DNA from: Hormiphora californensis
Lineage: Eukaryota > Animalia > Ctenophora
Length of the DNA stretch: 64,000 nucleotides
Direction: 5' to 3'
Assembly (NCBI GenBank): GCA_020137815.1
Contig: CM035362.1
Span: forward strand, 2,604,001 to 2,668,000
Shown: one piece after another, positions 24,849 to 60,327 of the stretch
Layout of the letters: each line of letters begins with the position of its first letter
How positions within the stretch are numbered: the stretch's first letter is position 1
Position numbers and translations under genes: made by a program
The notes under the pieces: generated by a model
What the model was told of the DNA's origin: nothing
What the model saw: the letters and a program-made list of their open reading frames with translations, nothing else
The model's database searches: none

Positions 24849-25336
24849 ATTATTTCATATGTATCTTACTCAGCATCACTTTGTCTAACATGTTTCTCTC
24901 CTACCCTAACACAATCCACACTCCACGGACACGTAGACGTAGGTACCTACACACACTCTAAAATAACCATGTTATGGGGTTTCTACTTGGGCTGCTGAAA
25001 ACTTAAAAGAAACGCACAATTCACAAAAAATGGTTTATCTAAACACTAAAATATTGGAAGACGGTACTGAGCAGTGAGCAGTGAGCATCTACCATAACAA
25101 TTCGGTCACACTTTTTAGTAGACATCAACGTGACGCGCGGCCAATTACTTAAGTTGAAATCAATCATACAGCATTTGGTTTTCAGGTTTGGCGCGGAATT
25201 TAGGGACCTTGAAACTGCGCGCGCAACTTACACACACTTGTTCAATTGTTGTACTGATTCTGTGTTTTGTGTCCCTTCCTCAAGGCTCAACGCGATTCTG
25301 GCAGGATCCTATGAACTAATTATCGTATCCTATAAA

Positions 25337-26975: not shown

Positions 26976-27417
26976 TAAACTAAAGAATCCCAAACTTTCT
27001 CTCCTTCTTTAAAATTTCCCACGGTTGTGGTTATTGCATCCGGCATTATCAGCTTCACATGTATAATACATGGTGGTTCTAAACAATACTACAATAGTCA
27101 ATAGTGTAAGTTGAAAAATCAAACTAGAAACTTGAAAGTAGGAGTCTTTATCGGTGTCTGCATCTAGGATGTATTTAGGACAAATAGTTACAGCAATAGA
27201 TTACTGTGTCTCAGCTGTGAAATAAAACGAGACTAAGGCATGGCAACTCAGGGAGGCGTTCTCACCACGACAAGTTTCCAGACACATATTTTTTATTGGA
27301 ACAAGTTTCAAAAATTTAAACAAGTACCTACATATAGATAAGCTTTTTGCCAGCCGTGGAGATGGTGTAGGGAGGGATAGCAAGCCTTTGAGAATTAGAG
27401 AGGAATTTTTGGGCAAA

Positions 27418-37329: not shown

Positions 37330-40300
37330 ATGAGGTTGGTACAAATTAAACTGTTGTTGTGGAAAAATGCCGTGCTGATCAAACGAAAACCGGTAATTTG
37401 TTAGGATGTTGTCTTGATTGTTTGTTAAGTTCCTGAGGGCGTTCCTGATTTGTTGAATTGTTTAGATCTGCTCGTTTCATGTTTTGTAACAAAAGTCCTG
37501 ACTAAATTTACTAAACCCTAATCCCGATTCTTTCAGTGGGTAACACTCCTTCAAACAATTCTTCCGCTGGTATTATTCGTGATATTCGTAGCAGTCCGTT
37601 TCCGGCTTCCGCCCGTTAATGTCTCTGATAGTAAGTTTTACACCGGGTTTTGTATACCCTGAACCCTCTTGTTCTGTATAGGGTAGGAACCGACCGAATC
37701 AGGAAATACTGGTCCCTGATTGGCTGATAACCAGTCACGCGACCTAAATAACGAGTTTTGATTGGTTGTTTACTTGTGTCGGTCGGTTCTTGGTATAGGG
37801 CACCCTATTACTATTATTAGTGCCCCTCTTGTATCTTATCCAATTCTGTTTTTGTTCCTTACCATAGAGTTCTAACCTCCATCTCTCTTTCCCTCAGAGT
37901 TCTACTATGCCAAGCCCATGCCTAGTGCTGGGTCAGTTCCCTTTTTTCAGCACCTTCTATGTGATCCAATCAGCGGAAGACCTGAGATAAGAATGGAGCA
38001 TGTTTCACCCTACAAAACATATCCTGGAGCTGGGTGAGTTCATCATCTAGATGATATATCTCCCAACCAGGAACCGACCGAATCAGAAAATAATGGTCCC
38101 TGATTGGCTGATAACCAGTCACGTGACCTAAATAACGAGTTCTGATTGGTTGTTTACTTGTGTCGGTCGGTTCCTGGTGAGTTCATCATCTAGATGATAT
38201 ATCTCCCAATATTATCCTGTATATAGTTCAATCCTAACCACTCGGCCTCTTTACTTTTCTATCCTAACCCCTACTCCCGACCCTGAACCCTCATCGCAGC
38301 CCTCCCCTATCCTATCCTGACCCCCACACCATCATCCCTCCTCTACTCATTCCCCCTACAGGGTGTATCCAATGTTATCCCTGGTGGATAGTGTAGTTCA
38401 ACTTACAGATAGCTACACAGTTCTAACAACACTCCATACTCGCCTACTCCGGGAGACACTAAATGTAACCGATCCTGGGAACATACAGGCTGTCAAGGTA
38501 AGGGGTGTGTGTGTCACGTGATGTCCATATATGGTGTTATATGTCACGTGATAGTCAGGAACAACTCCGGGAGACACTAAATGTAACCGATCCTGGGAAC
38601 ATACAGGCTGTCAAGGTAAGGGGGGTGTGTGTCACGTGATGTCCATATATGGTGTTGTATGTCACGTGATAGTCAGGAACTACTCCGGGAGACACTAAAT
38701 GTAACCGATCCTGGGAACATACAGGCTGTCAAGGTAAGGGGTGTGTGTGTCACGTGATGCCCATATATGGTGTTATATGTCACGTGATAGTCAGGAACTA
38801 CTCCGGGAGACACTAAATGTGACAGATCCCGGAAACATACAGGCAGTCAAGGTAAGGGGTGTGTGTGGGTCACGTGATGCCCATATATGGTGTTATATGT
38901 CACGTGATAGTCAGGAACTACTCCGGGAGACACTAAATGTGACCGATCCTGGAAACATACAGGCTGTCAAGGTAAATGGGAAGTGAGAGTTCAATCAGTA
39001 TCTGTCTGGCGCCGCCGACCCCATCTGAGCGCACTGTTGAGAATCAAATGGGGTATGGGCGCCGCCATACAGATCAGTATCGCATATTTTGCCTTGCTCG
39101 ACCCTGTTTTACCGCGCTCCGGAGGAGGGTTAGAACATTAAAACAAGGCATATTATCGCTTATTGAATGAGTTTAGAGTTCGGAATTATTTCTGCAGTTT
39201 CTTAAGAACTCTTTACTTCTTCCCTTTCAGAATGGAATTGAGTCGCATCTAAACTCGGGTCTCCAACATCTCAATGATTCCTCCTCCGCTCTCCTCTCCG
39301 GAGATCCAGGCTCTTCGGTCAGCGGAATATTCGGAAACCTACTAAACCAAGAAACATCAGATCTCCTCCCTGAGTCCATCTCACTTAACAAAAAACAGAA
39401 TTTAGTGAAGGATCAGGATGTACAGAAGCGAGATTTGTCAGATTACCTGACCCCCATGTGGGGCGAGCAGATACCAAATGATGTTGTCCAGACTGAACCT
39501 GGGATACCTGAACCAACTGGTATTCCCCTTCTCGATATCGTGAGAGATCGTGGTCCTGAATTGCTTGCGGAGTAAGTTGTAACTTTTAATGAATTTAGTG
39601 CTCCTGAATTGCTTGCGGAGTAAGTTGTAACTTTTAATGTTGTAATCACTCCCAATCTCCCTCAGTCAAGAGGTGCTACAAGGTCTGGTCAGGGCAGCTC
39701 AGGGTTTACCGCTAGATAAAAAGGGTCGGGCGAAGGCTGAGAGAACGTTGGAACAGCTAACCAAGGAGTATCTCAAACAGAAATACTTGGAAAAAGTTAC
39801 TGGCAAAAAGGTACATTATCATTTGAATTCCATTTCCGAGTATAGTCTGTCAGAGCATTGGCCTGACTCATTCTCGTTTCTCTCAAATTTCTGAGCACGC
39901 GAGAACTGTGGTCAGAGCATTGGCCTGACAGAGTATAGTACCCAACTCTTCCTCCTATTCCACCCGAAAACCCACGAACTCCAACTGTTACCCTTCTCAA
40001 ACTGCAGGTTGAGATGAACGAAGAGATAAAGCACGTTCAGAAAGCGCTGTGTAGTGATCCCCTTCTAACATCTGACCCTGAGATACAATACGTCTGTGAT
40101 ATCGTACAACGCCGCAACATGTGAGTTTGCAGCCGTTATGTAGCTCATATCTGACAGCTGATCGTGATGGGACCAGATATGAGATGTAATCGATCACCTT
40201 TCATTATCTTTGATATATCGCGTGAATTAGCTGTTACCATTCTCGAGACAGTTGAGGCCTTTACCTTAATTACCTACTACTAGTTAATTCTTCATTAATA

Positions 40301-43300
40301 GTCCTATTTGTCTGATCTGCCAGGCATCGCGCTGACGAGTGATTGTCGGTTTATTTTTGATCCCCCGCTGTAACTCATTGATCTACCGAAGCCTCACAGC
40401 GGTGTGTGCGGCAGTGCACACGCTGTACCTAGACCATTTTATCTTGAACTATTAAATTGTTGACACTCCACCCCGTTTTCCTGTTAGTGTCACCCTACCC
40501 CGGCTAAAAACTTCTGAAACCTATCAAGATAATCAGATCTAGTGACCGGCTCATCTCGGATATCATCAGACCCAATTAGTAATCTTTTCCGCGGTCCTAC
40601 TCAAAGGAGTGATTGGAATGTGTGATAATTGGTTATATCTGGACCTCTAGCTGTCCAATTAGAGAACCTTTCCTACCAATGAGGGAGCTCGAGAGGGGGG
40701 TCTAACGCGTTATGATCACGTGATCAGTACAGGGTGGTATTTGAATCTCGAGCTCTCCTGGTTTCATCATCATTCTCAGCGTTCTCAGTCTTCTAAGCCG
40801 TACTTCTAACGTCTTGTGATAAGTACACTTATGTCTGTAGAATCTTTGTGATGATCAGTTCTTGTATCTAGCTTTGTAGTTCCATGTCATATTATAGGAT
40901 GGCACATGTCACTTTTATATGTACTTATGTAATGATTATTATGGCATGTCATGTTGTTTTTGAACAGTTGGTGGAGGAACCCTATTCATAATGTCCGACC
41001 CTTTTCGAGCATCCTACCATCTTTCTGAGCTAATCGTGGCAACTGAATCAACCAAGATAACTCTTCAACGCCCAAAAAGCAGCTCATTCACTCAGCTATT
41101 TAGTTTTTTAATTTCCCTGATTTCAAATCCCATGATCAGTATAATTTACAATTTCACAACCCACCCCCTCCTCCCCCGTGTCCCCGTGTCCTCAACAACT
41201 CTTCCCCAGATCTACGTTTGATGCCCTCACCCCTCCTCCCCCTCCCCCTCCTCCCGTGTCCCCGTGTCCTCAGCAACTCTCCCTCAGATCTACGTTTGAT
41301 GCCCTCACCCTGAACACTGTATCAATGGAGGTGCTGCTAGCTAGCAAGAGGATATCTACCCTAACCAAGACTGTTCAGATGGATCTAACGGCCCTACAAC
41401 GGTCTAACAAGACTCACTACCTAAAGGTATGTATGGCATGATGCTATCATTTCTTTCTCCTAGCTTCTACCCCAAAACCAATATCCCTATATCCCTACCT
41501 GCAACTAAATCCCAACAATCCCTACCTGCCTGCAGGGTCTGATGTGTGGGAAGGAGGAGACACCTACTACCCCTAACATGGAATCTGATATAGAATCCAG
41601 AACATTTGATGTCAAGTTGGGAATGTTGGTGAAATTAAAGAAGGCCAAGTTTGTTTTCTCTCCTGATACCCCTCCAGTGAGGAGGATCATCAAAAAGGTA
41701 TAGTTAATTAATTAAGGGAACTATCTAAAACCTTGAACTAGTACCACGACCTGTGGGAAATTCAGATCTTGTCTCTCAACAACCCGCCGGGCTAAGATCA
41801 TTGAACTAGTACCACGACCTGTGGGAAATTCAGATCTCACCTCTCAACAACCCGCCGGGCTACGATCTTTGAACTAGTACCACGACCTGTGGGAAATTCA
41901 GATCTCACCTCTCAACAACCAACCGGGCTACGATCTTTGAACTAGTACCACGACCTGTGGGAAATTCAGATATCGTCTCTCAAGAACCCACCCGGACTAC
42001 GAGCTTTGAACTAGTACCACGACCTGTGGGAAATTCAGATCTCATCTCTCAAGAACCCACCGTGCTACGATCTTTGAACTAGTACCACGACCTGTGGGAA
42101 ATTCAGATCTCATCTCTCAACAACCCACCGTGCTACGATCTTTGAACTAGTACCACGACCTGTGGGAAATTCATATCTCGTCTCTCAACAACCCACCGGG
42201 CTACGATCTTTGAACTAGTACCACGACCTGTGGGAAATTCAAATTTTTACCGATCCTGGGGTTCGGGGGGAGGGGGGTCTCACTCACATGTTCCTTTATC
42301 CAGATGAACAGGACCTTTGAAGAGGCAGTGAGGTTGAGAGAGATATCAACAGTGTGGATTCAGGAGAATTCACCCGCTTTAAAGGAATGCATCAGCCATC
42401 TTCAACCTTCAGTCACTCTTCTACAGGTATAGACTTTAGCTTCCCATCGTCGGTAGCCCTATTCATTAATACTGCTTTTGCTCCCCCGAGAATTTACCAC
42501 GCGTCTCATAACCGCTCATGAGTTGGCTCTAGTTCCCCTGTCCCGGGTCCCCTAACCTTTCTCCCCCCCCCCAGTTAGCAGGTGATATAGCAACCTGTAG
42601 CTCCTACAACCCCCACACTACCCCCCCCCCCAGTTAGCGGGTGAGATAGCAACATGTAGCTCCTACAACCCCCATACTATCCCTGCTGTTATGAAGGACT
42701 GGTTCGACCACGCAGTATCACAACAGAAAACCCTGGAGAACCTACTGAAAGTTGTGGAGGCATTCGATAGTAGCAGTTCTACCAATTGTAAGTGTGGTTT
42801 AACCCAAACATCATTATTGTTTTACCTCGCTTTTTGAAAGCTTGAATCCTCATAAATTGCTCGACCACTCGTAGGAGCTAGCACAAAAATGCAGAATTAC
42901 ACTAAATCGGTGTAGTTCTGCATTTTTGTGTTTTAGTACCTCCAAATTACAAACAATAACTCCCTCAACCAAGCTCGCAGCTTGCAGCATTGTCAAGTGA
43001 ATGCCAACTCCCTAATACCCAGTACCCCCTCAGATACCAACTCCCTAATACCCAGTACCCCCTCAGATACCCCCAACTCCCTAATACCCATTATACCCCC
43101 TCAGATACCCAGTTATTGCAGTTACACCCCATTCTACAGACTAGGATCACTAGAGAAAAGTTACTGGAGGGAATAGATCAGGTCAGTGAGATATATCGCA
43201 CAATCAGAGATTCAAAACGGGGTTTGGCGAGTTGCCAGATAGCATTTTACTGAGCATTTTAGTTTTACACAGAACGTAATGAACACTGGCAAGCACCACA

Positions 43301-46300
43301 TTGATCTAAACCAGGAACCGACCGAATCAGGAAATACTGGTCCCTGATTGGCTGATATCCAGTCACGTGGCCTAAATAACGAGTTCTGATTGGTTGTTTA
43401 CTTGTGTCGATCGGTTCCTGATCCTAATATATCATCTCCCAGGTGTCTTCCTTTCTTCAAGCCTACCTGGACGCTACAGATGATGTTGATTTTGATCTGT
43501 TTATACCCGCTGCAAACGCCTCAGAACTAGTAAAGGTAGAAATTCTTATTATAATTGCTCTCCTTGCAAGCGATTGTAACCGAAGCTGTTCCCTGTTCCC
43601 TGTCCCATACTGGCAGCTCATACCTCATGTTATGTAATATTCTCCTCCCCATGTCTCTACTCTGGCCCAAATGTAACACTCCCCTCCCTATTCAGTTTGT
43701 CAAGACAACAGATGAGCTTGTTTGGGCAGGGATAGTGTTTACTAATGTTAATGACACCATGCCATCCCGAGTGGAGTACACCCTCCGGATGAACGGACAA
43801 GTAAGTGGGGGTCCATCTCCCTGACCTCTCAATAGTAAAGGTATCCCTTGGTTACAACTCAGGAACCGACCAGGGAATACTGGTCCCTGATTGGCTGACA
43901 ACCAGTCACGTGACCTAAATAACGAGTTCTGATTGGTAGTTACTTGTTAATGTTTCGGTCGGTTCCTGTTACAACATTTTCCACTTTCCATACCTCCCTC
44001 TCTGATAAAGCTCTATTCATCTCCTTATAGGTGAAGGTGGGGACAGGAGAGGTAACTCTAGAACGGTTCTGGTCCCCCAACCCAATGAACGGATTCTCGC
44101 ACCGTCGATACGAGTGGAGTGGGTTCGCGTTTATACAGGTACCAAACATACAGATCACACACCACATGGCGTGACATGAGAGATCTTACAGATCCCTATA
44201 GCTGAATCTTTAGCTCAGCTCAGCAGTATACTGTCTCTGTTACCTGATTTTCACAAAAAACACCTACTGCTACTACCTAAACCGCAGATCGTATATCATC
44301 TTAGAATAGATCCCTATATAACAGCTATTCTGAATCTCAGTAGTAGACCACTTCAGGAATCAGGATCCGTTTGTTTGATGCTCTTGATTTTCACAACAAC
44401 ACTCCTACTCAGGACATCACAGATAGGGCCATTATAGCCCTGCAACAAGAACAGATAGGTGGAGGTGGGGAGCAGCAGCAGCTACCTGGATCATATGTCC
44501 AGGAGATACCTTACCCCTGTCATTGCTGGGATACGTGAGTAGTTAATTCCTGGGATAAGTGAGTAGTTAATTCCTGGGATAAGTGAGTAGTTAATTCCTG
44601 GGATAAGTGAGTAGTTAATTCCTGGGTTAAGTGAGTAGTTAATTCCTGGGATAAGTGAGTAGTTAATTCCTGGGATAAGTGAGTAGTTAATTCCTGGGAT
44701 AAGTGAGTAGTTAATTCCTGGGATACGTGAGTAGTTAATTCCTGGGATAAGTGAGTAGTTAATTCCTGGGATACGTGAGTAGTTAATTCCTGGGATAAGT
44801 GAGTAGTTAATTCCTGGGATACGTGAGTAGTTAATTCCTGGGATAAGTGAGTAGTTAATTCCTGGGATAAGTGAGTAGTTAATTCCTGGGATAAGTGAGT
44901 AGTTAATTCCTGGGATACGTGAGTAATCCCGGGACCACACGTTTACGAAATAACCATTTTTGTGGCACCTGCTACAGGCCATCCAGTATATGATATTCCG
45001 AGTTTTCCAAATATTCCTACCAAACACATCTCCAATTTCCCCAAAACTCCCAAATTCCAAAACTCCCACAATACCCTCAGGTTTCTGAGTCACAGTGTGA
45101 TAGTGCTACCCATGTCCCTGTGTATTAGTTTCGTGTACAGTGTGTGTGTTATTGTAAGGAATGTAGTTTACGAGAAGGAGACAAGGGTCAAAGAAGCAAT
45201 GCAACAGGTACACCAATTACCTTACTCTCGTTTTTTAAGAAACGCTTTAGTAAGAAACTTTTTTATAAGAAACTTTTCAAATGTAAATCACACAATTCAG
45301 AGACACCACAACAAAATAAAACACCCCTAACTTTTTTAGTTTCTTAATAAAGGAGAAATTCTTTTTGTTTTTGGATTGCTTACACCTGTAGTTTCCTAGA
45401 AAAAAAGTTTCTTGTTTAAAAGTTTCTTGAAATATGCGAGCTTAATTAACAAGAGTAAGGTAGTTCTTTAACCTCGAGTTATTAAACGCAATTCAATTTC
45501 TCCTCCGCTTTCCCTAAATGAAGAACTGAACTATCCAAACTCCGGTGTTCAAAACCAACACCTCTCTCTCTCCAGATGGGACTGAGTAACAGTGTTCACA
45601 GTCCCTCTCCCCCCTTACTAACAACTACCACCCCACACTAACACACCTCCCTCCCTCTCTCTCCAGATGGGACTGAGTAACAGTGTTCACTGGGCGTCCT
45701 GGTTCATCACCAGCATGCTACAAATGACTGTCACTACATCCCTTCTTACCATCATGCTCTATTATGGTATGTGAATCTTATTCCCTGTATTTCTTGATCT
45801 GTTGAACCCATACAGAGCTGTTGTGTGGGCTACATAATGTATTCCCCGCGTGATTTCTCCCCTACCCAACCCGCCACTTCGACCCCGATTGCCGTTCTCA
45901 CTCCCCTCCCCACAGGTAAGATCCTGACCCACAGTGATCCCTTTCTGTTATGGTTATTCCTGGAGGTGAGCTCCCTTGCAACAGTCAGCTTCTGTTTCCT
46001 TCTCTCTGTCTTCTTCAGGTTTGTCAGCTTCTGTTTCCCTCTCTCTGTCTTCTTCAGGTTTGTAGAATGCCCCCAACCCCCCAGCCTTCTAAATCTAAGT
46101 TTCCTATGCCGTTATTCAACCTTAAAACTACACATATTCCCCCTTGCCTTGTTCGACCCTCCTTCCCCGTTTGAACAAAACAAATCTCCCGCATGTAGTG
46201 AGGCGAAGTTGGCAGCGGCTGGATCAGGTTTAATCTACATAATCACCTACCTACCCTACACCCTCATATCTCAGAGTGATGGAATAGTTGTCAGCTTCAC

Positions 46301-49300
46301 TGCCAAATCTATTGTGGTACGTTAACACATGATGTTCACCCAGAATGTTTTGTCTCTCAAGACCTCTCTCTCTCACTACAAATCCTTTAGAGTTTTGCTA
46401 GTACCTCTCTCTCACTACAAATCCTTTAGAGTTTTGCTAGTACTTCAGCGACTGCCCTTGGAATTGAGTACTTCATACGGTTTGAAGAGCTGGGAGTGGG
46501 AGTACATTGGAACAACCTGTCACAAGGAGTGGTGAGTGGACATTGTTAAACATATTCTCTAGGATTTATTTTACATCATGTTTTCCACATTTCACCTCCC
46601 AAAAAACCTCTCCATCCTTCCCTCACCTCATTTCCCATCCTTCCCTCACCTCATTTCCCATCCTTCCCTCACCTCATTTCCCATCCTTCCCTCACCTCAT
46701 TTCCCATCCTTCCCTCACCTCCCCATCCTTCCCTCACCTCCCCATCCCACAGTTTCCTATGGACGACTACAACATGTTACGGTGTATCTGTACCCTGCTG
46801 GGAGATGCCCTTCTCTACTTTCTACTGGCCCTCTACATTGAGGGAGTCTGGCCTGGCATGTGAGTACTGCAGGGGGGGGGGGTTACTATGGTGACAATGA
46901 GGGAGTAGAGGGTGTTTTAGGAAGGGGGTTACCATGGTGACAATGAGGGAGTACAGGGTGTTTTGAAACAGGTGGTTTTGAAATTAAGGTTCCGCTAAAA
47001 CCAGTGAAGTGACTCACTCACTCACTCACTGAGCTCTGACCCATCACTAACTCTCTCACTCTCTCTGTCTGCAGGTATGGTGTCCCCAAGCCCTGGTATT
47101 TCCCTATCAAGTTTATGTTCTGGTGCCGACACCCTGCTCCCTCTAAAAACAGATATCTCTCCTACACCGACAATGAGATGCACGGTATGTTCTAACACCT
47201 GGCTTAGTGTGAGACATTAGGGCACGGTATGGTATGTATTGTGTTGTTCTAACCTTGTTCGACCCTCTCTTCGATCTCTCGTGTGTCCTAAATGCTAGCT
47301 GTTCATGGAGTACTCGTCAAACTTCACTATCTTGGCATGCATCTGAACCCGTACGCACCCTCTCCCCAGTCCGCTTCTAACCCCCTCTACCCAGCCCGCT
47401 TCTAACCCCATATCCCCAGTCCGCTTCTAACCCCCTCTACCCAGCCCGCTTCTAACCCCATATCCCCAGTCCGCTTCTAACCCCCTCTACCCAGCCCGCT
47501 TCTAACCCCATATCCCCAGTCCGCTTCTAACCCTCTCCCCAGCCCGCTTCTAACCCCATATCCCTGCAGCCCGTGATGCTGATGTAGAGCCAGTACCAGA
47601 GCACCTTACAGCCGGGGTGTCCATCTCCCAACTAGCCAAGAAGTACAGGGGCATGTCTAACTATGCTCTTTCTGGATTATCTCTGGAGTTATACGAGAAC
47701 CAGGTAACTCGATGTAGCTGTTATGAACCGACCGAATCAGGAAATAATGGTCCCCGATTGGCTGATAACCAGCCACGTGACCTAAACAACGAGTTTTGAT
47801 TGGTTGTTTGCTTGATTCGGTCGGTTGCTGGTTCTCTCCGATTTCCTTGTCCTTCAATATCCTCATTCATTTTCTCGCATCTTATTATCGGCCTACATGG
47901 ATTCCCTCATTACCATCTCCCATTCAGATTCTTACCTTTCTGGGCCATAATGGAGCGGGAAAGACTACGACTATGAGTATTCTCAGTGGTCTCTACCCTC
48001 CCAGTTCAGGGACCGCTACCATATATGGGAAGGACATCAAAAAGGACATGAGACTGGTAGGAGAGATACAAATTGAGGCGAGATTTATTGGCACTGGAGA
48101 TTTACAATTAACTGTTCAAATCAGAATATTTAACGTGATCTCTCTCACTCAGATCCGTCAAGATCTAGGAGTTTGTCCTCAATTCAATGTGCTGTTAGAC
48201 CATCTCACTGTGGAGGAGCACTTGTGGTTCTTTGCCAGCCTCAAAGGTATATATTGGGGAAATACTGGTCCCTGATTGGCTGATAACCAGTCACGTGACG
48301 TAAATAAAGAGTTCTGATTGGTTGTTTACTTGTGTCTGTCGGTTCCTGTATATTGGGGCCGGGGAGAGGATTGGGGTTAAATGGGGTATTGGGGTTAAAT
48401 ACAGGGGTATCTTATAGAAAATGGGAGAAACTTGGATCTCTAAATACTCCTGAAATGGTATCCGGGCTGGGTTGGGAAGGGGTTGAGGTTACATTCTCCC
48501 CTACACAGGTACACCACCTAATAAGATACTGGAAGAGGTGGAGACCTTTCTGAGAAGCGTGGGACTTGTTGAAAAAGGAAATCTGCAGGTTCACCAACTC
48601 TCCGGTATGTAGGGGCATAAAAACAATATAGGGGTATCTTTAGGAGTTCCAGAATATTACTAATACTCCTTGTCCCCATGCCACTCCTTTATTTTCTAAA
48701 CCCTCTAAAACCATGTAGTTCTAACCACTCTCCTTCACTTCAGGTGGTATGAAAAGGAAGTTGTGTGTGGCTATGGCATTTGTTGGTGGATCTCGAGTTG
48801 TTATATTGGATGAACCCACTGCTGGGGTAAGAACTGGACTAAGAACTAACTTCCTTGATTAATCGAATTAAATTACTAAGTTACTTTTGTTGATCAAATT
48901 CCTATAATCAGTTGCCATGACAACCGGAAGTTGAGCGTTTCAGATTCTAAAATTTAGTTTATTCAACTTCCTGCTGTACAATATTCCTCCCTGCTATAAC
49001 AGGTTGACCCATGGTCTAGGAGAAGTATCTGGGAGTTAGTTCTGACCCACAAACAGGACCGGACCATCCTCCTCTCTACACATCATATGGACGAGGCAGA
49101 CCTGTTGGGGGATAGAGTTGCTATCATTTCACGAGGTTCGTTGTAAACATAACAGGTACAGGTACAGGTATAAATCTTCTCTTTTCTCAAGGGTTCAATC
49201 ATTGGGCCGGGAAGCGACTGCAAAAACCCCATCTCCCCCATTTGCCTCACCATGTTTCATCTCAGGAAAGTTGTTGTGCTGCGGATCACCACTTTATCTT

Positions 49301-52300
49301 AAGGCTCGCTTTGGACCTGGATACTACTTGAACATCGAAAAGGAATCGGGTATACTGTTCATTCATGATAGCTTCAATACTCCGTTCAAGATCTTCTTTT
49401 TAATTTTCCTTCCCCATTAATCAGTTTCACCCTATTTAGTGCCCCCTCTAAATACCCTCTCCCTCCCAGTTTACTCAAGTGCCCCCCTGAACCCTCTAAA
49501 TACCCTCTCCCTCCCAGTTTACTCAAGTGCTCCCTCCCTCTAACCCCTCACCCTCCCAGTTTATTCCAGTGCCCCCTCTAAACAGCACCTCCCTCCCAGT
49601 TTACTCCAGTGCCCCCTCTTCCTCTTCCGGTGGTGGCTCTGAGCACTCTACATCTCTCCTAGAGGATAGTGGGTTCATAGGGAACACTACTATTGGGGAT
49701 CTGGATGGGAGTATGATGCTTCAGAAACACAGTGTTGCATTCGATCAGATACAGACTACCAGGTAGGATTCAGGAAATACTGGTCCCTGATTGGCTGATA
49801 ACCAGTCACGTGACCTAAATAACGAGTTCTGATTGGTTGTTTACTTGTGTCGGTCGGTTCCTAGTATGCTACAGAAACACAGTGTTGCTTTCGATCAGAT
49901 ACAGACTACCAGGTAGGATTCAAGCAGTGTCTTGAATAGCTTCATAAACTAGTGTTATACAAGGTGTACAAATTATCTCAGATAATTGTCCGATTACATT
50001 ACTATCAGATGACACAAAACAAAAGTACCCACCATAGGAGTAACTAACTCGCCCTATTTAGGTTGATCCAGAGTTACGTACCCCGAGCTACGATCCACTT
50101 CAATACCGACCTAGAGATCTCTTACCTGCTACCTTGGGAGGCCTTTCAAAAGGGTAGGAACTCTGGAACTGGGTGTTTCACTTAGTAACCATCTCACCAG
50201 CTAAATCTTCATTGAAATAGAATTCGGAACTCTAAACTTGATCACTATAACATCCCCAGACAAACCTCATAATCCAAGGCATAAACTAACCATCTCCTCA
50301 TCTCCACAGGCGTGTTCCCGGATCTGTTCAAGTCACTAGATGAGGGAAAGGGAGATCTGGGTATCAAGTGCTATGGTGTCATGGACAGCACCCTTGAAGA
50401 GGTTGGTGTGAGTGTCAGTGTGTCTCTAATGTCCCTCATGTTAGGGATTTGGACTACCCGTATTTCAGTTTGTACCTGATGTTCATTACAACTCCAATAC
50501 CCCCTGATCCCCTTCTTCATGCAGAACTCCAATAGCATTCCAATCCCCCTCCCCAGGTATTTCTGAATGTGTCTGAGGGAGCTAACACTGCCGATGAGAA
50601 GAAGGAGGTGGATGGGTCAACCACAAACCTACTCGGTGCTACTAAACAGGATCAGGATGACATCATCGATATGCCAGGTGAGAGAGCAACCCCCTGAGAT
50701 TCATGAGACAAATCAGTTGGCGATTTATGAGTTTTAGTAACTTGATGACTGTGGAACATTAATACAGAATTTTGCTATTTTCGCTACCCCTCCCCCAGAA
50801 ATTCCCGCCCATTTACCCCCCCCCCCCTCAGATTTGGACTATGCCGGTTCGGGTGATACAGGTGTGCCCCTATCTAAACAAGAAATACCACCTTCCAGTA
50901 ACTGCAGACAAATACAGGCACAACTCGCCAAGAGGTAAAGTGCAGTTGGTTATGTCCCAGTTGCAAGAGGTAATAAGGGTCTACTTTTGATTTACCGGAG
51001 CTCTAGCACGATTTACCGTCCTAGATTTTATGCTCACCTTAACCCCCTTGGCCTCTCTTGGTAGTACCCACCTGTAACCAATCTCCTGCTCTAGGATCCA
51101 CCATACCCGCCGTGATTTCTGGGGTCTATTCTTCCAGCTGGTCCTACCTGCCATCTTTGTATCTCTAGCCATGTTGATCTCCGTAGCACGACCTCACATT
51201 GACTCAGGTATTTTCCTCAGCATTGGTAGGGGCTGGGTAGTACCCAGTGGGTAGTGGGTATAGTATCACCAGCAACTAGATTTGTTCCACCGTGAGAAGC
51301 ATGATATCTTCTCTAGTCCAATATTTATATTTGTGGGCGCAGAGGGAGAGGGTCGAACAGGGTAATTATCTTCCAGGTAAAAGTCTGGAGCTGACTGTGG
51401 ACATGTTCAAACACCCGTACTACGTTCCCTTTGCTGATAATAACACACACGGAGCTGGAAGGCTGGCTGAGTTAGTAGGATACCCTGCTGGACCATGGAG
51501 TCCACCTATAGGTGAGTGATTTGGAGAATAATGAAGGATAACAGTGTGTCTCTTGTAATTAGAGAATTCGTATTCTAATTACATTACCGACTATGTTCCC
51601 TACCCAGATGATGAAGTGTTAATGTTGAGGAACTTTACGGCCCCCAAACACACTCCCACCCTCCCATTCCCCTGGACACACTACTGGAACAGTCCCCTGG
51701 GTAAGTTTGTGTGACGTCATGATGAGACATGAGACAATGCTTGGCTGGAGAACATTCCCGAACATATCAAAATCTAATTCCTGTTTCCCTGAAACTATGA
51801 AACGGCTGTTTTGGAGTTGATAGTCATGTGTGAAAAGTCTCAATTCATGCTATCTTGGTATGGACCCCCTGGAGAAAGCTGTTTTTCACTTTAGTAGCTG
51901 TTCTAACCATCTCCCATTCAGACGGTTGTGGTAACCACGAGTACCCCGAGATACCGGCAATGTTAGAATTCACCGCTCTATCTGGGTACAAACTACAGAA
52001 CCTGACTGGGTGGAATCTGGAACGGTTCTTATTGCACACCAATCATCGCTACATCTTCCAGAGGTACTGGGTGAAGTATGGTGGAGATTGGGGATGTGAA
52101 GTGTTATTATAGTGAAGTTGTTAGATAGTGTTCTGTGTAGTGTTTGGTTGCCAAGCTAGACTGCGATGTAAAGGGAGGGTTAGAACATAACAAGTGTTTG
52201 GGAGATGCTGCGCGGCGAAGGAATCTTGTTTTCAAGTGTTCAATTTAAGAGGTAGGGGCGGGGGTAACACCACCACCACAACCACCCCCAGGTATGGAGC

Positions 52301-55300
52301 ACTAACAGTTGGAGAGTGGCACAATGATCTACGGAAGTTCGCCCCAACCAACTGGACTGAAAGTTACCTTTCTAGTAAGAGCTTCACAATACTGCAACAA
52401 ATAAAATAGCTCACGATCGACCATTGACAGCTCCTCTCCAAACAGTAACCACTGCAACCCCCCTGTCATAACTCCTGCCCCCCCCCCCCCCTTAAAAACC
52501 CAGCCCCCATCCAGGCACTCACAACTACTGTACCCCCTCATAACTCCTGCCCTCTTCCTAGAATGGAGTGCATATAACCCAGAGGCGGCTAAAGCATGGC
52601 ACAGCTACAGAGGTGCCCACGCTCTGCCTACATACCTCTCTGCTGTCAGTAACATTGTCCTACGATCCGCCCTGCCACAAGGTATGAGAGAGAGAGGGAA
52701 GTTGTAGATTAGTATTTTGATACTGACAATGGATCGCAAACTGCACTGCAGTACATACTTCGGTATCTGTTTTGTTTTGTTTTGTATCTTGGAATAGGTC
52801 CCTAACTCCCATTATTCCCTGGTCATCGTTTCCTAAACCCCCACTCCGTCTAGATTGGCGTAACCAGTCCCGGTATGGTATAGTTGTATCCACCCACCCT
52901 CTCCCTAAAACCCCCCCCCCCCCCACAGATTGGCGGAACCAGTCCCGGTATGGTATAGTTGTATCCACCCACCCTCTCCCTAACGACCCCCCCCCCCCCT
53001 AGATTGGCGTAACCAGTCCCGGTATGGTATAGTTGTATCCACCCACCCTCTCCCTAACACCCCCCCCCCCCATATAGATTGGAGGAACCAGTCCCGGTAT
53101 GGTATAGTTGTCTCCACCCACCCTCTCCCTAACACCCCCCCCCCCCCACAGATTGGCGGAACCAGTCCCGGTATGGTATAGTTGTATCCACCCACCCTCT
53201 CCCTAACGACCCCCCCCCCCCCCCCCCCTAGATTGGCGTAACCAGTCCCGGTATGGTATAATTGTATCCACCCACCCTCTCCCTAACACCCCCCCCCCCC
53301 CTAGATTGGCGTAACCAGTCCCGGTATGGTATAGTTGTGTCCACCCACCCTCTCCCTAACACCCCCCCCCCCCTAGATTGGAGGAACCAGTCCCGGTATG
53401 GTATAATTGTATCCACCCACCCTCTCCCTAACACCCCCCCCTAGATTGGCGGAACCAGTCCCGGTATGGTATAGTTGTCTCCACCCACCCTCTCCCTAAT
53501 ACCTCCCCCTAGATTGGAGGAACCAGTCCCGGTATGGTATAGTTGTATCCACCCACCCTCTCCCTAATACCCCCACCCCCTAGATTGGCGGAACCAGTCC
53601 CGGTATGGTATAGTTGTATCCACCCACCCTCTCCCTAATACCCCCCCCCCCCTAGATTGGCGTAACCAGTCCCGGTACGGTATAGTTGTCTCCACCCACC
53701 CTCTCCCTAATACCCCCCTCCCCCCCCCCCCCCCCTTAGATTGGATGAACCAGTCCCGGTATGGTATAGTTGTATCCACCCACCCTCTCCCTAATACCTC
53801 CCCCCCCCCTAGATTGGCGAAACCAGTCCCGGTATGGTATAGTTGTCTCCACCCACCCTCTCCCTAATACCCCCCCCCCCCCTAGATTGGCGGAACCAGT
53901 CCCGGTATGGTATAGTTGTATCCACCCACCCTCTTCCTAACAATGGCTCCCTGGCTGACATATGGGAGATAATGGATGAGGAGAGTTATGACCTGGTTAT
54001 CAGTGTGTTTATCATTGTAGCTCTCAGCTTTGTTCCTGCTAGTTTTGTGCTCTTCCTAGTCAGAGAGAGGTAAGAAATCAGATTTTGATAATGTACTCGA
54101 GACACTCGACCTTTAATTCCCAATGTATATCTCGGCTATGTTAGCTAATATCTTTGTTATGTTCTAAGGGCCTTTCTTAACGAGACAAAAACTACAATTG
54201 CACCCTGCAATTGCACCCTGCAATTGCAGGGTGCAATCCACTTTCTGTCTCGTTAAGAAAGGTCTTTGCACCCTGTAGGGGTGTAACAGGAGGACCTATT
54301 ACACCCTGCAATTGCACCCTACAATTGCACCCTACAACTCTCGTTAAGAAAGGTTCTTGTAGGGTGCAATTGCACCCTTTACACGTGACCCAGTCACGTG
54401 TGCAATGAACGTGGGAAGTTGAGGGGTAGTGAAACATGAAACCCGGTTTACGGGGCATTGTTTATCATCACCTATTGGCATTGATACACACAGCATTACC
54501 ACATCAACATGGCACGTGACTGGGTCCTGTGTGAGGCATGCAATTGCACCCTACAACTTTCTTTCTTAACGAAGGTTTGCAGGGTGCAATTGCAGGGTGC
54601 AATTGCAGGGTGCAAACTCTCGTTAAGAAAGAAGTTTGTAGGGTGCAATTGCAGGGTGCAATTGCAGGGTGCAGCTCGTTAAGAAAGGCCCTTAGTTAGA
54701 ATCTAATGGCCTCCTTTACAATTGTTGTGGAAAAAGAGGGTCGAACAAGGGGGAGGGGGTCTCCCGCTAATCCCCTCACCTCAGGTGTTCGTGTCTCTAC
54801 CTGTTGGAATGTATAGCTGGTGCCCGTGTGTTCCCCTACTGGGCTGCTAACCTTATCTGGGATCTGGTATCTTTTACTGTTGCTAACACAGGTACTGCAC
54901 AGCTTCACTGAGATTAGTTTGTCACAGTTTAACTAAATGGAGTTTTTCTACTTCTTCACTGCTATTTTCGTGCTTGATATGTCACAATGCGGGCTGGGTT
55001 CGTTGAATGGGTAAGGGGCCTAGGGCGGCTAGGGGAGGGTGGGGACATCTCTACACATGTTTCAGGTTGTATTCTAGTAGTTCTGATGTTCCATTCTCCA
55101 TCCTTCTCAAGCACTGACAATATCCCTGCAATTATCGTACTGATGGCCCTCTACTCCTGGTCTATCACACCCCTCATGTAAGTATCACGTGATTCCCATA
55201 TATGGCAATGACCATATTTGGTAATAATACCGTATTTGGTAGGTATCTGTGTTCTCACACCTTCTCGGAGAGCAACAACGCTTACGTCACGATGATTTGT

Positions 55301-56247
55301 CTGAATACTTTCTTTGGTATAACCACCACCCTGACAACATTCTTAGTGGAGTTCCTGGCACCAAACGAGATCGGGTACGTGATGGGTGTTCAGATTGGGT
55401 ACATGTAGGTGATTATATAGTGGGGTATCTGATTGGATGGATTCGGAAATCTAGATAGCACAGGTCCCAAAATTAAGAGTTCTGGGATAGTGACGGGTCT
55501 TTGGTTCCTTCCGGTCGGTGGGAAGTTTTGGGAAGGGGGGGGATAATAACAATTCCCACACAGGTTCATTAGTTTCAATAACTTCCTAAAGTACGCCTTC
55601 CTACTGCTTCCCAACTACTGTCTGGGTCGGGGTATAATGGACCTAGCTGGCAATCAGTTCCTTAATGATATCAAGGTCAAATTTGGTAAGTGTGAAACCT
55701 AGAGCACTCCCCCCAAGCTCACATAACACCGCCCCTTGTTACTCAACAACCGCTCCTAGAGGTAGAACATCGGTTTCACCAAGACTTTAGTGCCTCCGGT
55801 TTCACCTAGACTTAATTGCCCCAAAATAACAAGATTATCATGATGCAGTATTGACTTGTTGCCTGCTCAACTACTTCCCCGCCTTGTTTGCCCATTACCT
55901 CCCGCAACCCCCCCCCCCCCCCTATATCCTCAACTACCCCCCACCTTCCTCAGGATACCCGACTGAGTCTCCGTGGGAGTGGGAGCTAATTGGACGGAAC
56001 TGTGTCTTTATGGGTGCAACAGGTACGAAAAAGTCAGGGTTTTTTAAATGAGAAGAAAGTTTAAAAATAATTAAATTCAGTATTTGAATAAGTTCCCCTT
56101 CTGAGAATAGAATCTCATATGGTCTTGTGCTCTTGTGCTCTTGAGTTCTTGTCAAGCTTGTATAACACTGATATGATAGGTATATCTCTCTCTTTCTGGC
56201 TTGGTCTTGGTCTTCGTTCTCTCTCTTTCTATCTTGATCTTGATCTT

Positions 56248-56306
<59 letters not shown>

Positions 56307-59300
56307 ATCATGGTCTTGGTCTTGACCTACTTGATTCAAGGATCTAGATTTTGGGATAGAGGGTTTTGTGGGTTGACCGTACCCACAGAGCCATCAACCA
56401 ACCAGGCTCACGGCAGAGGGACGATGATCACACAAACAAAACAAGAAGTAGAGTTTGTGTGATCATCGCTGGTACGAAGAGTCACTGTGCAATTGACTGT
56501 AATTTTAGAATGGCAAATGGCAATTGTACAGTGACTCCCCCCTCTGGGAACCCGAACCCTCCCACGCCTCCCCCGTATCCTGCTTGCCAGGCAGAATAGG
56601 AGTCAGAGTGAGAGGACCCGGGAACCGCTGATAAACAGCAAAAGGTCGCCAATAGGCCTACTTGCCAGTAGAATCTCTGGAGGTTGAAGCAGGACAGTCA
56701 GTCACGAGGCAGTGAGACCAAGAGAACCAGACAGGATGGAGAGCCGGAGCACACACGTCTCACTAAAGGCTTACTCCATCTGTAGGATAACGGAATCCGC
56801 TGAGGGGACGGGTGCGTCCTTACCCGGTACAAGACCGAGCTCTACATCCGTCTGAACCTCAACGGTAGAGGAATTACCTGACTGGCCAGCTATCCTCCGT
56901 GCTGCCCGGTCTACGACCTGGGAAATTGCCAGCCAGGATTGGCGTCCAGATTCCTTGATGAGGTCCCTAGTGGCCATGTGCTCACGCACAAGTACATCTA
57001 GGAGCTTCACCAAGGCAGCTAGACTGTGGGCCTTGGAGTCTGTCTGGTGTCTCTTGATGTCATCTGCCACGCGAAGGACACCCCACTTCAGTGCTGTCAG
57101 GTTGTCAGCGACACGGGCTCCCGAAGAAGCAAGGTCAACAGTGACTCCCTGAACAGACGCCTCCAGAGAACTGAGCCTCCTCGCAAAAGCGTGGAGGCCG
57201 ACAAGTATTGTAGACAACGCCGCTAGGACGAGGATGCCGACGAAGAGAAGACAGATTTCTACAGGAGAAATCATAGTTTACGAAACTTGCGGTGCGGTGT
57301 GAAAACAACAGCAAAGCAATAGCAGTAAACGGGCAAAGAACCTGCACGTGCTACCCTGGGTTATATAGACCTCCTGGTAGCCATGGTTACTGACTGGATT
57401 TGACACACTTCTTGCACGTGCTAGGCTTGTCAGGGGACTGGAGGGTGATACTTGGGCTCTAGTCAGCACTTTTAACCAGCCAATAAAGTCAACTTATTAT
57501 TCCCTAACCTTCCACAAAAGGAGAAAGACAATTAACTATCTTCCTCCCCGTTTCAGGTGTTGTGTTTCTGCTGATTCTGGTGGTTGTCTCAGTTCCTAGA
57601 AAGGGAAAGAGTATCAATGTGCCCAATGTTAACAAGGAACTTGAGGATGATGATGTTAGGTAGGTGTGATGGCTGATGTCCTTCCTCTTCCCTACCCCCT
57701 CCCTAAACCCTTCACTGTACCCCGGCCCCTACCCCCAATAGAAAGGAAGAACTAGGCATTAGGTGCATTGTGAGTTTATTGTGTAGTTGTGCATGTTTTT
57801 ATTGCTGACACTGGTTGATACGTGTTCCATAACAGGGCTGAAAGACAGAGGACCATCTACTCGTACTCGTATAGCGATGTTCTGAAAGCCCAGAACTTGT
57901 GTAAGGTGTACAAGAAGGGGAAGTTCGTTGCAGTTAACCGGTTATCATTCTCTGTATCACCTGGTATGTTAACATTCCTGTTGTAGTACTCCATAGAGGA
58001 CATGACAACATGGTTTCTTCATGTCTCTACAACCCGCTTGGCTCTTATTTTTTTCTAACCGAGCAAGAATGATGTTTTGTTTTGCCCCTTCTTCTCCCCT
58101 TAAAATCTTCCCCTGCAGGAGAGTGTTTTGGGTTGCTAGGTATAAATGGCGCTGGCAAGACAACAACATTCAAGATGCTAACTGGACAACTCAGACCTTC
58201 AAATGGGGACGCTGTAAGTTTTAAATCAACTCCCCTTACCTCCATCTCTCCCCTAAATTCTACCCACTCCATTCCTTTTCTCACTTCCTTTTTCTAAACT
58301 CCCTCCACTCGCTTTCCCTTCCTCCCCAGTCACCTCTCCAGTATCGTCCCTCGACTTCACCCCTTCTTCTTCACTCCCCTTCAAACCACTCCTCCAACAC
58401 CCCTCCTCTCCCCAGGTGGTATGCCAAATGAGTTTGAAACAGCAGCTGGTAAGAGCCCGCCGAAAGCTGGGTTACTGTCCCCAATCTGATGCCTTGTTAC
58501 CCACCCTCACCTCTCATGAGACACTTGGCTCTGTTTGCAAGGCTCAGGGGAATCCCTGAGAGCCAGATTGAATACATCTCAAAACAGGTGATTACTGAAC
58601 TCCAATCAGGTAGTATAGACTACCTATAGTAGTAGTGGAGCATAAATTTCACCCTAACTATCTTCATCTTCCTTGTCTCACTAGACTGCCCTATCCAAAC
58701 CGGGCCCTCTCTGAACTGTGAAGCACACGTAATATAAAGAAACATTCACTAACTATCCCCCATCTTCCTATAGATAATCCGGTTGGTAGGTTTGACGAGT
58801 TATGCCAGTAGACCCTGTGGTAACCTACAGTGGTGGAAATAAGAGGAAACTATCGGCAGCAGTAGCACTGATTGGGGAACCTCGACTAGTGTTGCTAGAT
58901 GAACCTACAGCAGGTACTGATCTGACAATTAATAAGGGGAAATTAGCTAAATAAGGGCCGAAACTAGGGAAAAATTTGTAACAAGCTAATTCCTTCACCA
59001 ATTGGTCCCTATGGGTCCCTAGAATCACCAAAAAAAAAATCACAAAAAATCCGCGATGGCTAAGTTGGGTTTTTGGACCACGCCCTTTTACCTGTATTTT
59101 CAGTCATGTGGTCAAAAATCTAAATTCTCTTAGAATATGAGTAAAGAAGAAAATAAGGGCACTAAACTGTGTAGCGTCCTCGCATTAGTGGGGGTAGACG
59201 CCCATGAAAAGTCTCTATCTCATTTGGTTAATTAGATAATTGGATAATTAGATCTGCGCATAGCCGTTTTTGGCCATACGGCTATAGCCACTTAGGAATA

Positions 59301-60108
59301 GTTTAGAGACTTTTCACTGGCGCCATTTTGTAGGCAATGGCCAAGTTATGGGGGGTCGACGTCGGACTTTTAAGCTCTAACTCCAACCGTTTAGCCGATA
59401 TTTGGCTTCAAAGGTGCTCAAAATCGGGCTTTTTACCGTTTTTTGCTCATTTTGAGCACCTTTAAAGCCAAATATCGGCTAAACGGTTGGAGATAGAGCT
59501 TAAAAGTCCGACGTCGACCCCCCATAACTTGGCCATTGCCTACAAAATGGCGCCAGTGAAAAGTCTCTAAACTATTCCTAAGTGGCTATAGCCGTATGGC
59601 CAAAAACGGCTATGCGCAGATCTAATTATCCAATTATCTAATTAACCAAATGAGATAGAGACTTTTCATGGGCGTCTACCCCCACTAATGCGAGGACGCT
59701 ACACAGTTTAGTGCCCTTATTTTCTTCTTTACTCATATTCTAAGAGAATTTAGATTTTTGACCATATCTTACTATATAATGCAAAAACACCCGAAACTTG
59801 ATCCCACCCATGCATGTTTGGTGGTCCCTAAATCGTCGTCATCAAGATCAGATCACATCACCCAACATGCATGATCAGATCACCCTACTGAGGATCAGAT
59901 CCCCCCACCCAAGATCAGATCACCATACTGAGGATCAGATCCCCCCACCCAAGATCAGATCATCCCATTGAGGATCATATCACCCCACCCATGATCAGAT
60001 CACCCCAGTGAATATCAGATCCCACATTTCACCCAGCAGTCCACTGTGCGTGATGAGATCCCCAAAATAGACAAAGACGACAGAGAAATTGAGATAGAAA
60101 TGAAGAGA

Positions 60109-60202
<94 letters not shown>

Positions 60203-60244
60203 AAGGAGAGAGACAGACAGAGGCAGAGACAGAGACAGAGACAG

Positions 60245-60327
<83 letters not shown>

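What the first reader, a model, noticed from the sequence alone, without database searches (positions are those of the whole stretch)
38444..53942. Intronic exon copies differ from the real exon mostly at synonymous positions
Seen (hand count). 38.4-kb array: GTA/GTG, ACC/ACA, CCT/CCC, GGG/GGA, GCT/GCA (5 synonymous, 1 not). 42575 vs 42634: GCA/GCG, ACC/ACA, CAC/CAT plus GAT/GAG. 49712 vs 49863: CTT/CTA, GCA/GCT. 52.9-kb array: Arg CGT/CGG/CGA/AGG, Val GTA/GTC/GTG, TAT/TAC, CTC/CTT, AAC/AAT (8 synonymous, 3 not). GALNT copy: 3 synonymous, 1 not. The 44.5-kb and 46.0-kb copies show only non-synonymous differences (3). Overall roughly 21 synonymous to 9 non-synonymous. Established: neutral decay gives only about a quarter synonymous changes. 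Inference: either the copies are translated, or they are an archive of selected exon alleles captured by unequal crossing-over or gene conversion between polymorphic haplotypes, with copies taking turns as the working exon edge.
Basis: partly seen in the sequence, partly recalled or inferred. Interest (0 to 1): 0.85.

Follow-up and report, generated by a model that had tools for sequence, protein, structure and literature searches.

The report
Exon-edge repeats storing silent alleles
In a comb jelly, one intron in five of a lipid-transporter gene holds stacked spare copies of the neighbouring exon's edge, and these copies differ from the real exon mostly at silent positions, likely because they are untranslated copies recently taken from other working versions of the exon in a very variable population; the repeat type is already known from amphioxus.

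Summary
Observation confirmed. In a ctenophore ABCA gene (56-exon model), 11 of 55 introns hold copies of an exon edge with its splice site. Copy variants are 25 synonymous to 13 non-synonymous (21:7 without edge sites). The pooled excess survives that (P 0.0003-0.004) but not without the two largest arrays (P 0.06). Translation is unlikely: 27 of 29 alternative splice uses tested hit a stop. The 38.4-kb array is not an assembly artefact: junction contigs occur in two samples. Working alleles differ densely and silently (34 of 34 listed exonic variants). At 38467 the pattern is reciprocal: the window's intronic GTG is the working allele in another sample, where the window's working GTA sits in an intronic copy. 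This is one site of five; recurrent mutation is possible. Best reading: untranslated splice-junction minisatellites refreshed from working alleles by inter-allelic recombination. The class is known (amphioxus 'mirages'); my hand count of a published mirage alignment gives the same bias (17:7). This scan noted the pattern before in two other genomes. New member of a known kind.

The parts
37330..62194 (+). Host gene: ABCA-family lipid transporter, 56-exon hand model, all introns GT-AG, about 2260 aa; one extra base near 58527 breaks the frame
   Evidence: ORF open to exon 51, 66% identical to P0001 over 589 aa; ABC_tran, ABC2_membrane_3; P0001 closest to ABCA1; spliced contigs of a diverged run X7 at three or more junctions
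38444..38975 (+). Donor-side array: 54-nt exon 4 end plus 64-nt spacer; working copy 38444-38497, idle copies at 38562, 38680, 38798, 38918; last copy is followed by a different intron; 5 synonymous, 1 non-synonymous variant; spacer overlaps a high-copy repeat
   Evidence: junctions and alleles; relatives end the exon at the same residue
39550..39639 (+). Single donor copy of exon 5 end (22 exonic nt); one non-synonymous edge difference
41175..41310 (+). Single acceptor copy (41210) of exon 8 start (working 41288); 23 exonic nt identical, 3 intronic differences; the only acceptor copy whose use keeps an open frame
42563..42683 (+). Single acceptor copy (42575) of exon 11 start (working 42634); 3 synonymous, 2 non-synonymous (one at the edge)
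44522..44925 (+). Donor-side array of 24-nt units, about 17 copies, 9-13 exonic nt each; 3 non-synonymous variants, none synonymous (only 1.0 synonymous site)
45564..45690 (+). Single acceptor copy (45576) of exon 18 start (working 45667); 24 exonic nt identical
45984..46063 (+). Single donor copy of exon 19 end (35 exonic nt); one non-synonymous difference; use of the second donor keeps an open frame
46366..46446 (+). Single acceptor copy (46391) of exon 21 start (working 46430); one synonymous edge difference
49438..49625 (+).
49716..49922 (+). Donor copy of exon 31 end (47 exonic nt) on the far side of a left-truncated high-copy inverted-repeat element (about 49770-49862); 2 synonymous differences
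52837..53942 (+). Acceptor-side array, 15 units of 68-84 nt (C tract, AG, 56 exonic nt); last unit (53886) is the working start of exon 42; 14 distinct unit haplotypes; 8 synonymous, 3 non-synonymous variants
   Evidence: homologue P0001 has the segment once
2099..2241 (-). Acceptor copy (2226) of a GALNT exon start (working 2133); 3 synonymous, 2 non-synonymous (one at the edge)
32835..33024 (+). Donor-side array, three identical 60-nt units, in an unidentified gene; no variant to count

Best explanation
These are tandem duplications of exon edges with their splice sites, likely spliced out with the intron and not translated, and their silent differences likely arise because the exon part of each unit was recently copied from a different working allele of a hyperpolymorphic population. 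Shown: the structure, the synonymous excess, the array in reads of two samples, silent-only allele variation, one reciprocal site. Inferred steps: (1) a duplication forms at the exon edge by slippage or break repair at short shared sequence, sometimes with a repeat fragment between the copies; (2) it is tolerated because the copy joined to the rest of the exon is the one spliced; (3) misaligned crossover or conversion between homologous chromosomes moves the working edge of one allele into the array of another, and probably back; (4) units turn over before much neutral decay builds up. A pN/pS of 0.16 means that about five sixths of the divergence arose while the sequences were working exons; a single chromosome lineage can supply at most half, so exchange between alleles is needed.
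For: Synonymous excess beyond the one-side-selected null, P 0.0003-0.004. Listed exonic allele variants 34 synonymous, 0 not (34 of the 51 rows shown). Allele distance 10% and 18% of synonymous sites versus 16% between copy and exon in pairs, with 3% at non-synonymous sites. One search, run X6: depth at 38467 is 6155.2, of which 5458.1 is G; the remaining 697.1 equals record 29, an intronic unit (spacer junction, table 5c) that carries the window's working A; both upstream-anchored contigs (records 26, 27) span 38467 and so carry G, the letter of window copies 4 and 5. In X1 and X2 both anchored contigs end on A. In the 38.4-kb array the exon part is more varied at silent sites (5 of 15) than the spacer (4 of 64), Fisher P 0.01. 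The 52.9-kb units show all four combinations of Arg third base T/G and Val third base A/C, 27 nt apart. Hand count of the amphioxus BflGb6 mirage alignment: 17 synonymous, 7 non-synonymous, 2 indels, and 4 of the 5 differences between the two working alleles occur in the other haplotype's idle copies.
Against: Only one site shows allele sharing firmly, it is a transition at a site with three alleles, so recurrent mutation is possible. Four other working-allele variants inside the unit (38452 A, 38461 G, 38461 T, 38467 T) are in none of the window's copies; ACC/ACA at 38470 is not listed in any contig; 38476, 38479 and 38491 lie too near contig ends to be resolved. Without the two big arrays the excess over the one-side-selected null is not significant (12:9, P 0.062). 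The 44.5-kb and 46.0-kb copies differ only non-synonymously. Variant tables were cut (40 of 441 rows shown) and favour well-supported variants. No RNA of this organism was laid.
Confidence: 0.62

Rival explanations
1. Plain duplication on one chromosome: the copy freezes an older state of the exon, the working exon then changes only silently and the copy decays freely. No exchange between alleles is needed; the effect is expected.
For: Predicts 38-43% synonymous, not 25%. Not rejected for the eight pairs (9:6, P 0.055) nor without the two big arrays (P 0.062). Several copies are identical to the exon, as a same-chromosome birth predicts. A shared variant can be ancestral or recurrent.
Against: Pooled P 0.0003-0.004 under the most generous form of this model; in many-copy arrays most branches are idle, so the expectation falls toward 25%, yet the 38.4, 49.4 and 52.9-kb arrays give 16:4. 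It does not explain a spacer younger than the exon part or the reciprocal site.
Confidence: 0.17
2. Indirect selection on idle copies: conversion from array into working edge is frequent enough, in a very large population, that copies with amino-acid changes are purged. Compatible with the best explanation, but it makes the copies a selected reservoir.
For: Mosaic units and the reciprocal site imply frequent exchange; human CBS 844ins68 was proposed to template a missense change into the working exon by conversion (PMC2630376, passages).
Against: Non-synonymous variation in the 38.4-kb exon part (1 of 39 sites) is not lower than in the spacer (4 of 64), Fisher P 0.65; the 44.5-kb array carries a Thr-to-Lys change in 12 of 16 copies.
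Confidence: 0.12
3. The copies are translated, as alternative splice sites or as small cassette exons (57-nt phase-0 units in the 38.4-kb array; 24-nt microexons in the 52.9-kb array).
For: Units 2-5 of the 38.4-kb array read as CAG, 19 open codons, GT. Two single copies (41210, 46057) keep the frame open if used.
Against: 27 of 29 alternative donor or acceptor uses tested hit a stop. Cassette use needs 61-nt (or 44-60-nt) introns; the shortest of the gene's 55 introns is 65 nt. Other haplotypes change the would-be first codon to Gly or Lys or lose the in-frame CAG (table 5c). P0001 has the 52.9-kb segment once. Acceptor-side copies at 42575, 49.4 kb and in GALNT have no donor.
Confidence: 0.05
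4. Assembly artefact: two alleles joined in tandem by the assembler or polisher.
For: The assembly has an apparent indel error near 58527 and noisy microsatellite tracts; pair distance equals allele distance.
Against: Contigs cross the spacer-to-exon-copy junction of the 38.4-kb array in X2 (the window's copy-2 junction), X5 and X6. Both anchored contigs of X1 and X2 carry GTA, so the GTG copies are not the second allele. Fourteen distinct units in the 52.9-kb array cannot come from two alleles.
Confidence: 0.04

Closest known systems
Amphioxus 'mirage' minisatellites (Adh3, globins BflGb6 and BflGb9, troponin C, PGBD5): PMC3087553 (section 16 and supplementary file 4 read), PMC3902484 (passages); original description PMC117041 not held, not read
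   Same: Tandem units of 10-160 bp that span an exon-intron boundary at either end, repeat the splice signal, vary between haplotypes and reportedly leave splicing normal. My hand count of the BflGb6 alignment shows the same silent excess (17:7) and allele sharing.
   Different: Here in a ctenophore, at 11 of 55 introns of one gene; two cases have a dispersed-repeat fragment between copies. The section read does not mention synonymous bias or allele capture.
Human CBS c.[833C; 844_845ins68] (PMC2630376, passages)
   Same: A 68-bp duplicate of an intron/exon junction; the distal site is used, the upstream copy is spliced out and carries a different allele; gene conversion from it was proposed.
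   Different: One duplication in a low-diversity species; the idle copy bears a missense change, not silent ones.
Variable internal tandem repeats at exon-intron boundaries of human segmental duplications (PMC2812944, passages)
   Same: Tandem repeats at boundaries that can be spliced out and may create introns.
   Different: Mostly expansions of coding repeats in paralogues; 'synonymous' does not occur in the main text.
Tandem mutually exclusive exon clusters (Dscam, myosin heavy chain; recalled)
   Same: Repeated exon sequence in introns with a synonymous excess.
   Different: Those are whole exons with both splice sites under direct selection; here the copies are exon fragments with one splice site.

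Membership tests
Mirage minisatellites | Tandem repeat unit spans an exon-intron boundary | tested here: met
   11 of 55 ABCA introns, plus GALNT and the 32.8-kb gene
Mirage minisatellites | Splice dinucleotide is repeated; both donor and acceptor ends occur | tested here: met
   5 introns with donor copies and 6 with acceptor copies
Mirage minisatellites | Unit length of about 10-160 bp | tested here: met
   array periods 24, 40-48, 60, 68-84, 118; pair offsets 39-150; range from PMC3087553
Mirage minisatellites | Units turn over: identical neighbours and mosaic units | tested here: met
   units 1 and 3 of the 38.4-kb array identical in the exon part; four-combination mosaic in the 52.9-kb array
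Mirage minisatellites | Copy number differs between haplotypes | tested here: inconclusive
   unit types absent from the window occur in both samples, but contig depth is not a copy number
Mirage minisatellites | Normal mRNA, no aberrant splice forms | not testable with these tools
   no RNA holder listed; X7 is about 85% alike and its listed pieces cover no copy-bearing junction
Mirage minisatellites | Somatic length instability | not testable with these tools
   needs single-molecule typing of tissues
Mutually exclusive or cassette exon duplicates | Each copy is a whole exon with acceptor and donor in a usable frame | tested here: not met
   27 of 29 uses give a stop; only the 38.4-kb units read as cassettes, with introns shorter than any of 55 and junction variants that break them
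ABCA transporter (host gene) | Two membrane-plus-ABC halves with large extracellular loops, closest to ABCA1/4/7 | tested here: met

The most novel reading that the evidence does not exclude
In hyperpolymorphic marine invertebrates, exon edges are swappable parts: splice-junction arrays trade sequence in both directions with the working exon of the homologous chromosome so often that idle intronic copies are kept free of missense change by selection acting through conversion, form a running archive of the population's silent alleles, and can replace a damaged working edge as CBS 844ins68 does in humans.
Probability: 0.2. Interest if true: 0.72.

Novelty: new member of a known kind. Interest (0 to 1): 0.42.

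Why it matters
Low pN/pS in an intronic exon copy is normally read as proof of a translated alternative exon; here it most likely arises without translation, which is a trap for annotation and for SNP calling in very polymorphic genomes. The arrays also offer a natural record of ectopic exchange between alleles over 20-60 nt, so the origin and turnover of mirage repeats, called unclear in PMC3087553, and their proposed role in intron gain become testable with phased long reads. The structure itself is known and the effect follows from ordinary population genetics, which caps the interest.

Tried and rejected
No whole genome is held, so no genome-wide pN/pS. No RNA holder listed for 44100-54080; no evidence either way. 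Run X7 (RNA by guess) gave 7 laid contigs, about 85% alike: useful for splice joins only. One search was swamped by high-copy repeats; 40 of 441 variant rows were shown, so the pairs at 45.6, 46.0, 46.4, 49.7 kb were not verified; 49619 T>C in working alleles matches the edge of copy 49518, and 49477 A>C in X5 matches the working exon, but both are weak and were not counted as support. Metagenome scan with P0001 found 3 distant ABC hits of 346 candidates, not used. Profile search with exon 4 found 3 short exon-read-through proteins: they confirm the donor position but cannot test cassette use. Transition bias does not explain the excess (15 of 25 synonymous variants are transitions; weights 1-4 tested). 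A Poisson test on the pairs (P 0.005) treats an estimated rate as known; I use the binomial (P 0.055). The branch motif does not separate real from idle acceptors (26 of 55 real ones have it). Literature: 8 searches found no paper on synonymous bias in splice-junction repeats or on mirages in ctenophores; most subscription papers, including the original mirage paper, are not held, so absence from print is not shown. PMC8527503 (passages) gives 2% SNP heterozygosity for another ctenophore assembly as context only.
Full report
Setting. The window is intron-rich eukaryotic DNA. An MFS exon at 5007-5180 (minus) is 91% and 88% identical to proteins named from Mnemiopsis leidyi and Bolinopsis microptera, so the organism is a ctenophore. 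The finding lies in an ABCA transporter gene on the plus strand, 37330-62194. My hand model has 56 exons, all introns GT-AG, 65-1689 nt; it is open to exon 51, where one extra base near 58527 shifts the frame, and is 66% identical to the unnamed homologue P0001 over 589 residues (families). Contigs of run X7, RNA by guess and about 85% alike, join exons as modelled (48249 to 48523, 48828 to 49027, loose ends at 47924, 52320, 52369). No whole genome is held.

The copies. An 11-mer search of all ABCA exons against their introns, a junction search and a repeat scan of 1-37300 give exon-edge copies in 11 of 55 ABCA introns, one in a GALNT gene and one array of three identical units at 32.8 kb. Donor-side copies follow the working exon; acceptor-side copies precede it. 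In each case only the copy joined to the rest of the exon gives the colinear protein: P0001 has the 52.9-kb segment once, and three relatives end exon 4 at the same residue. Two cases have a dispersed repeat between the copies: a truncated inverted-repeat element at 49770-49862 and, in the 38.4-kb spacer, a repeat with contig depth near 100,000 against 166 for the single-copy exon. In the 52.9-kb array the unit ends where the exon's CCTAAC resembles the intron's branch region, which points to microhomology (sequence; inference).

The count. Over 12 families, each site-allele counted once: 25 synonymous and 13 non-synonymous, pN/pS 0.16; 21:7 without the last 6 nt of each copy. Neutral decay predicts 23-28% synonymous (P at most 1.2e-6). 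But if one of two copies is the working exon, half the history is filtered and 38-43% is expected. Family-wise simulation under that null gives P 0.0003-0.004; 0.007 without the 38.4-kb array, 0.012 without the 52.9-kb array, 0.062 without both; the eight pairs alone give 9:6, P 0.055. Variants in one array are not independent.

Not an artefact, where tested. Laid on one unit of the 38.4-kb array, contigs of two samples cross from spacer back into the exon copy (X2 38561 to 38446, the window's copy-2 junction; X5 38559 to 38444; X6 38555 to 38444). Both upstream-anchored contigs of X1 and X2 run to 38467 with the window's letter, so the GTG copies are not the second allele of those runs. The 52.9-kb array has 14 distinct units among 15. 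The two-copy pairs were not verified.

Probably not translated. Of 21 upstream acceptors and 8 downstream donors tested, 27 lead to a stop; 41210 and 46057 stay open. Units 2-5 of the 38.4-kb array can be read as 57-nt cassettes, but need 61-nt introns, below the gene's minimum of 65, and other haplotypes turn the first codon into Gly or Lys or lose the in-frame CAG (table 5c). A 24-nt microexon reading of the 52.9-kb units needs 44-60-nt introns and leaves the Val variants unexplained (sequence, by eye). No RNA of this organism was available, so this rests on sequence.

Alleles. The 51 variant rows shown (40 of 441, and all 11) include 34 in exons; all 34 are synonymous. Two haplotypes of X2 differ at 3 of 29.7 and 5 of 27.7 synonymous sites; copy and exon in pairs differ at 9 of 57.0 synonymous and 6 of 198.0 non-synonymous sites. 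In X6 all depth at 38467 is G except 697.1, which equals record 29, a unit entered from spacer sequence; records 26 and 27, anchored in unique upstream exon, therefore carry G. The window has the reverse: A working, G in copies 4 and 5. Against this: it is one transition at a three-allele site; four other working-allele variants inside the unit are absent from the window's copies; 38470 was not seen and three sites were unresolved. The exon part of the 38.4-kb units is more varied at silent sites (5 of 15) than the spacer (4 of 64; P 0.01), while its non-synonymous sites (1 of 39) match the spacer (P 0.65): young units with old silent differences. The 52.9-kb units are mosaics over 27 nt.

Mechanism. 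On one chromosome lineage at most half of the divergence can fall on the selected branch. pN/pS 0.16 puts about five sixths there. The simplest source is exchange between alleles: misaligned crossover or conversion copies the working edge of one chromosome into the array of the other, and turnover removes units before they decay. This step is inferred (confidence 0.62). Plain duplication (0.17) is not excluded for pairs; selection through back-conversion (0.12) has no positive support; translation (0.05) and artefact (0.04) are unlikely.

What is known. Tandem repeats over exon-intron boundaries were named mirages in amphioxus and reported not to disturb splicing (PMC3087553, section 16; PMC3902484, passages); the original paper was not held. 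Reading the BflGb6 alignment (supplementary file 4) by eye, I count 17 synonymous and 7 non-synonymous variants and 2 indels in the copies, and 4 of the 5 silent differences between the two working alleles in the other haplotype's copies; section 16 does not remark on this. Human CBS 844ins68 works alike for a single duplication (PMC2630376, passages); see also PMC2812944 (passages). Eight searches found no report of the silent bias or of mirages in ctenophores; the library lacks most subscription papers. This scan noted similar patterns in two other genomes, one with a null result for rare variants and one explained as preserved older exon states; these are unchecked AI notes.

Verdict. Real, a new member of a known class in a new phylum, with a modest but testable addition: the silent bias exceeds what plain duplication gives and one site shows working and idle alleles swapped between samples. 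Interest 0.42.

Noticed in passing
window 37685, 38069, 43313, 43856, 47723, 48241, 49770 (also 2372, 13378): A 110-nt element with terminal inverted repeats, contig depth thousands of times single copy, is flanked by direct repeats of very variable length: about 8-9 nt, 11 nt, 34 nt including a splice donor (38033/38178) and about 57 nt including an exon end (49716/49866). It may seed exon-edge duplications.
   Followed up: partly
window about 58527: One extra base shifts the ABCA frame relative to P0001; probably an assembly indel, not checked in reads.
   Followed up: no
window 25336-26976, 954-1904, 59106-59767: Long near-perfect inverted repeats: arms of 790 nt (100%), 464 nt (97%) and 319 nt (99%) with spacers of 61, 23 and 24 nt; the second lies in a GALNT intron, the third in an ABCA intron. 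Foldback elements or assembly products.
   Followed up: no
window 45081-45207 and 38362-38467: Very high silent-site diversity: 5 and 3 synonymous differences between two haplotypes in single exons, and a second sample sharing only 16% of sampled 31-mers.
   Followed up: partly
window 42575 and 42634: The idle upstream acceptor keeps the branch-like motif while the frame-preserving downstream acceptor lacks it; how the downstream site is chosen is unexplained.
   Followed up: no
window 41733-42241, 47358-47573, 46612-46740, 43004-43110, 35231-36135: Further intronic or intergenic minisatellites; those at 43.0, 46.6 and 47.4 kb repeat the branch and pyrimidine region just before an acceptor with little or no exon sequence.
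   Followed up: no
window 56350-57370: About 1 kb inside an ABCA intron with a different, coding-like composition, possibly a retroelement fragment on the minus strand (by eye).
   Followed up: no
runs X1 and X2 at 46538, 47894, 51234: Two runs under one sample label differ in genotype, so the label may cover more than one animal.
   Followed up: no
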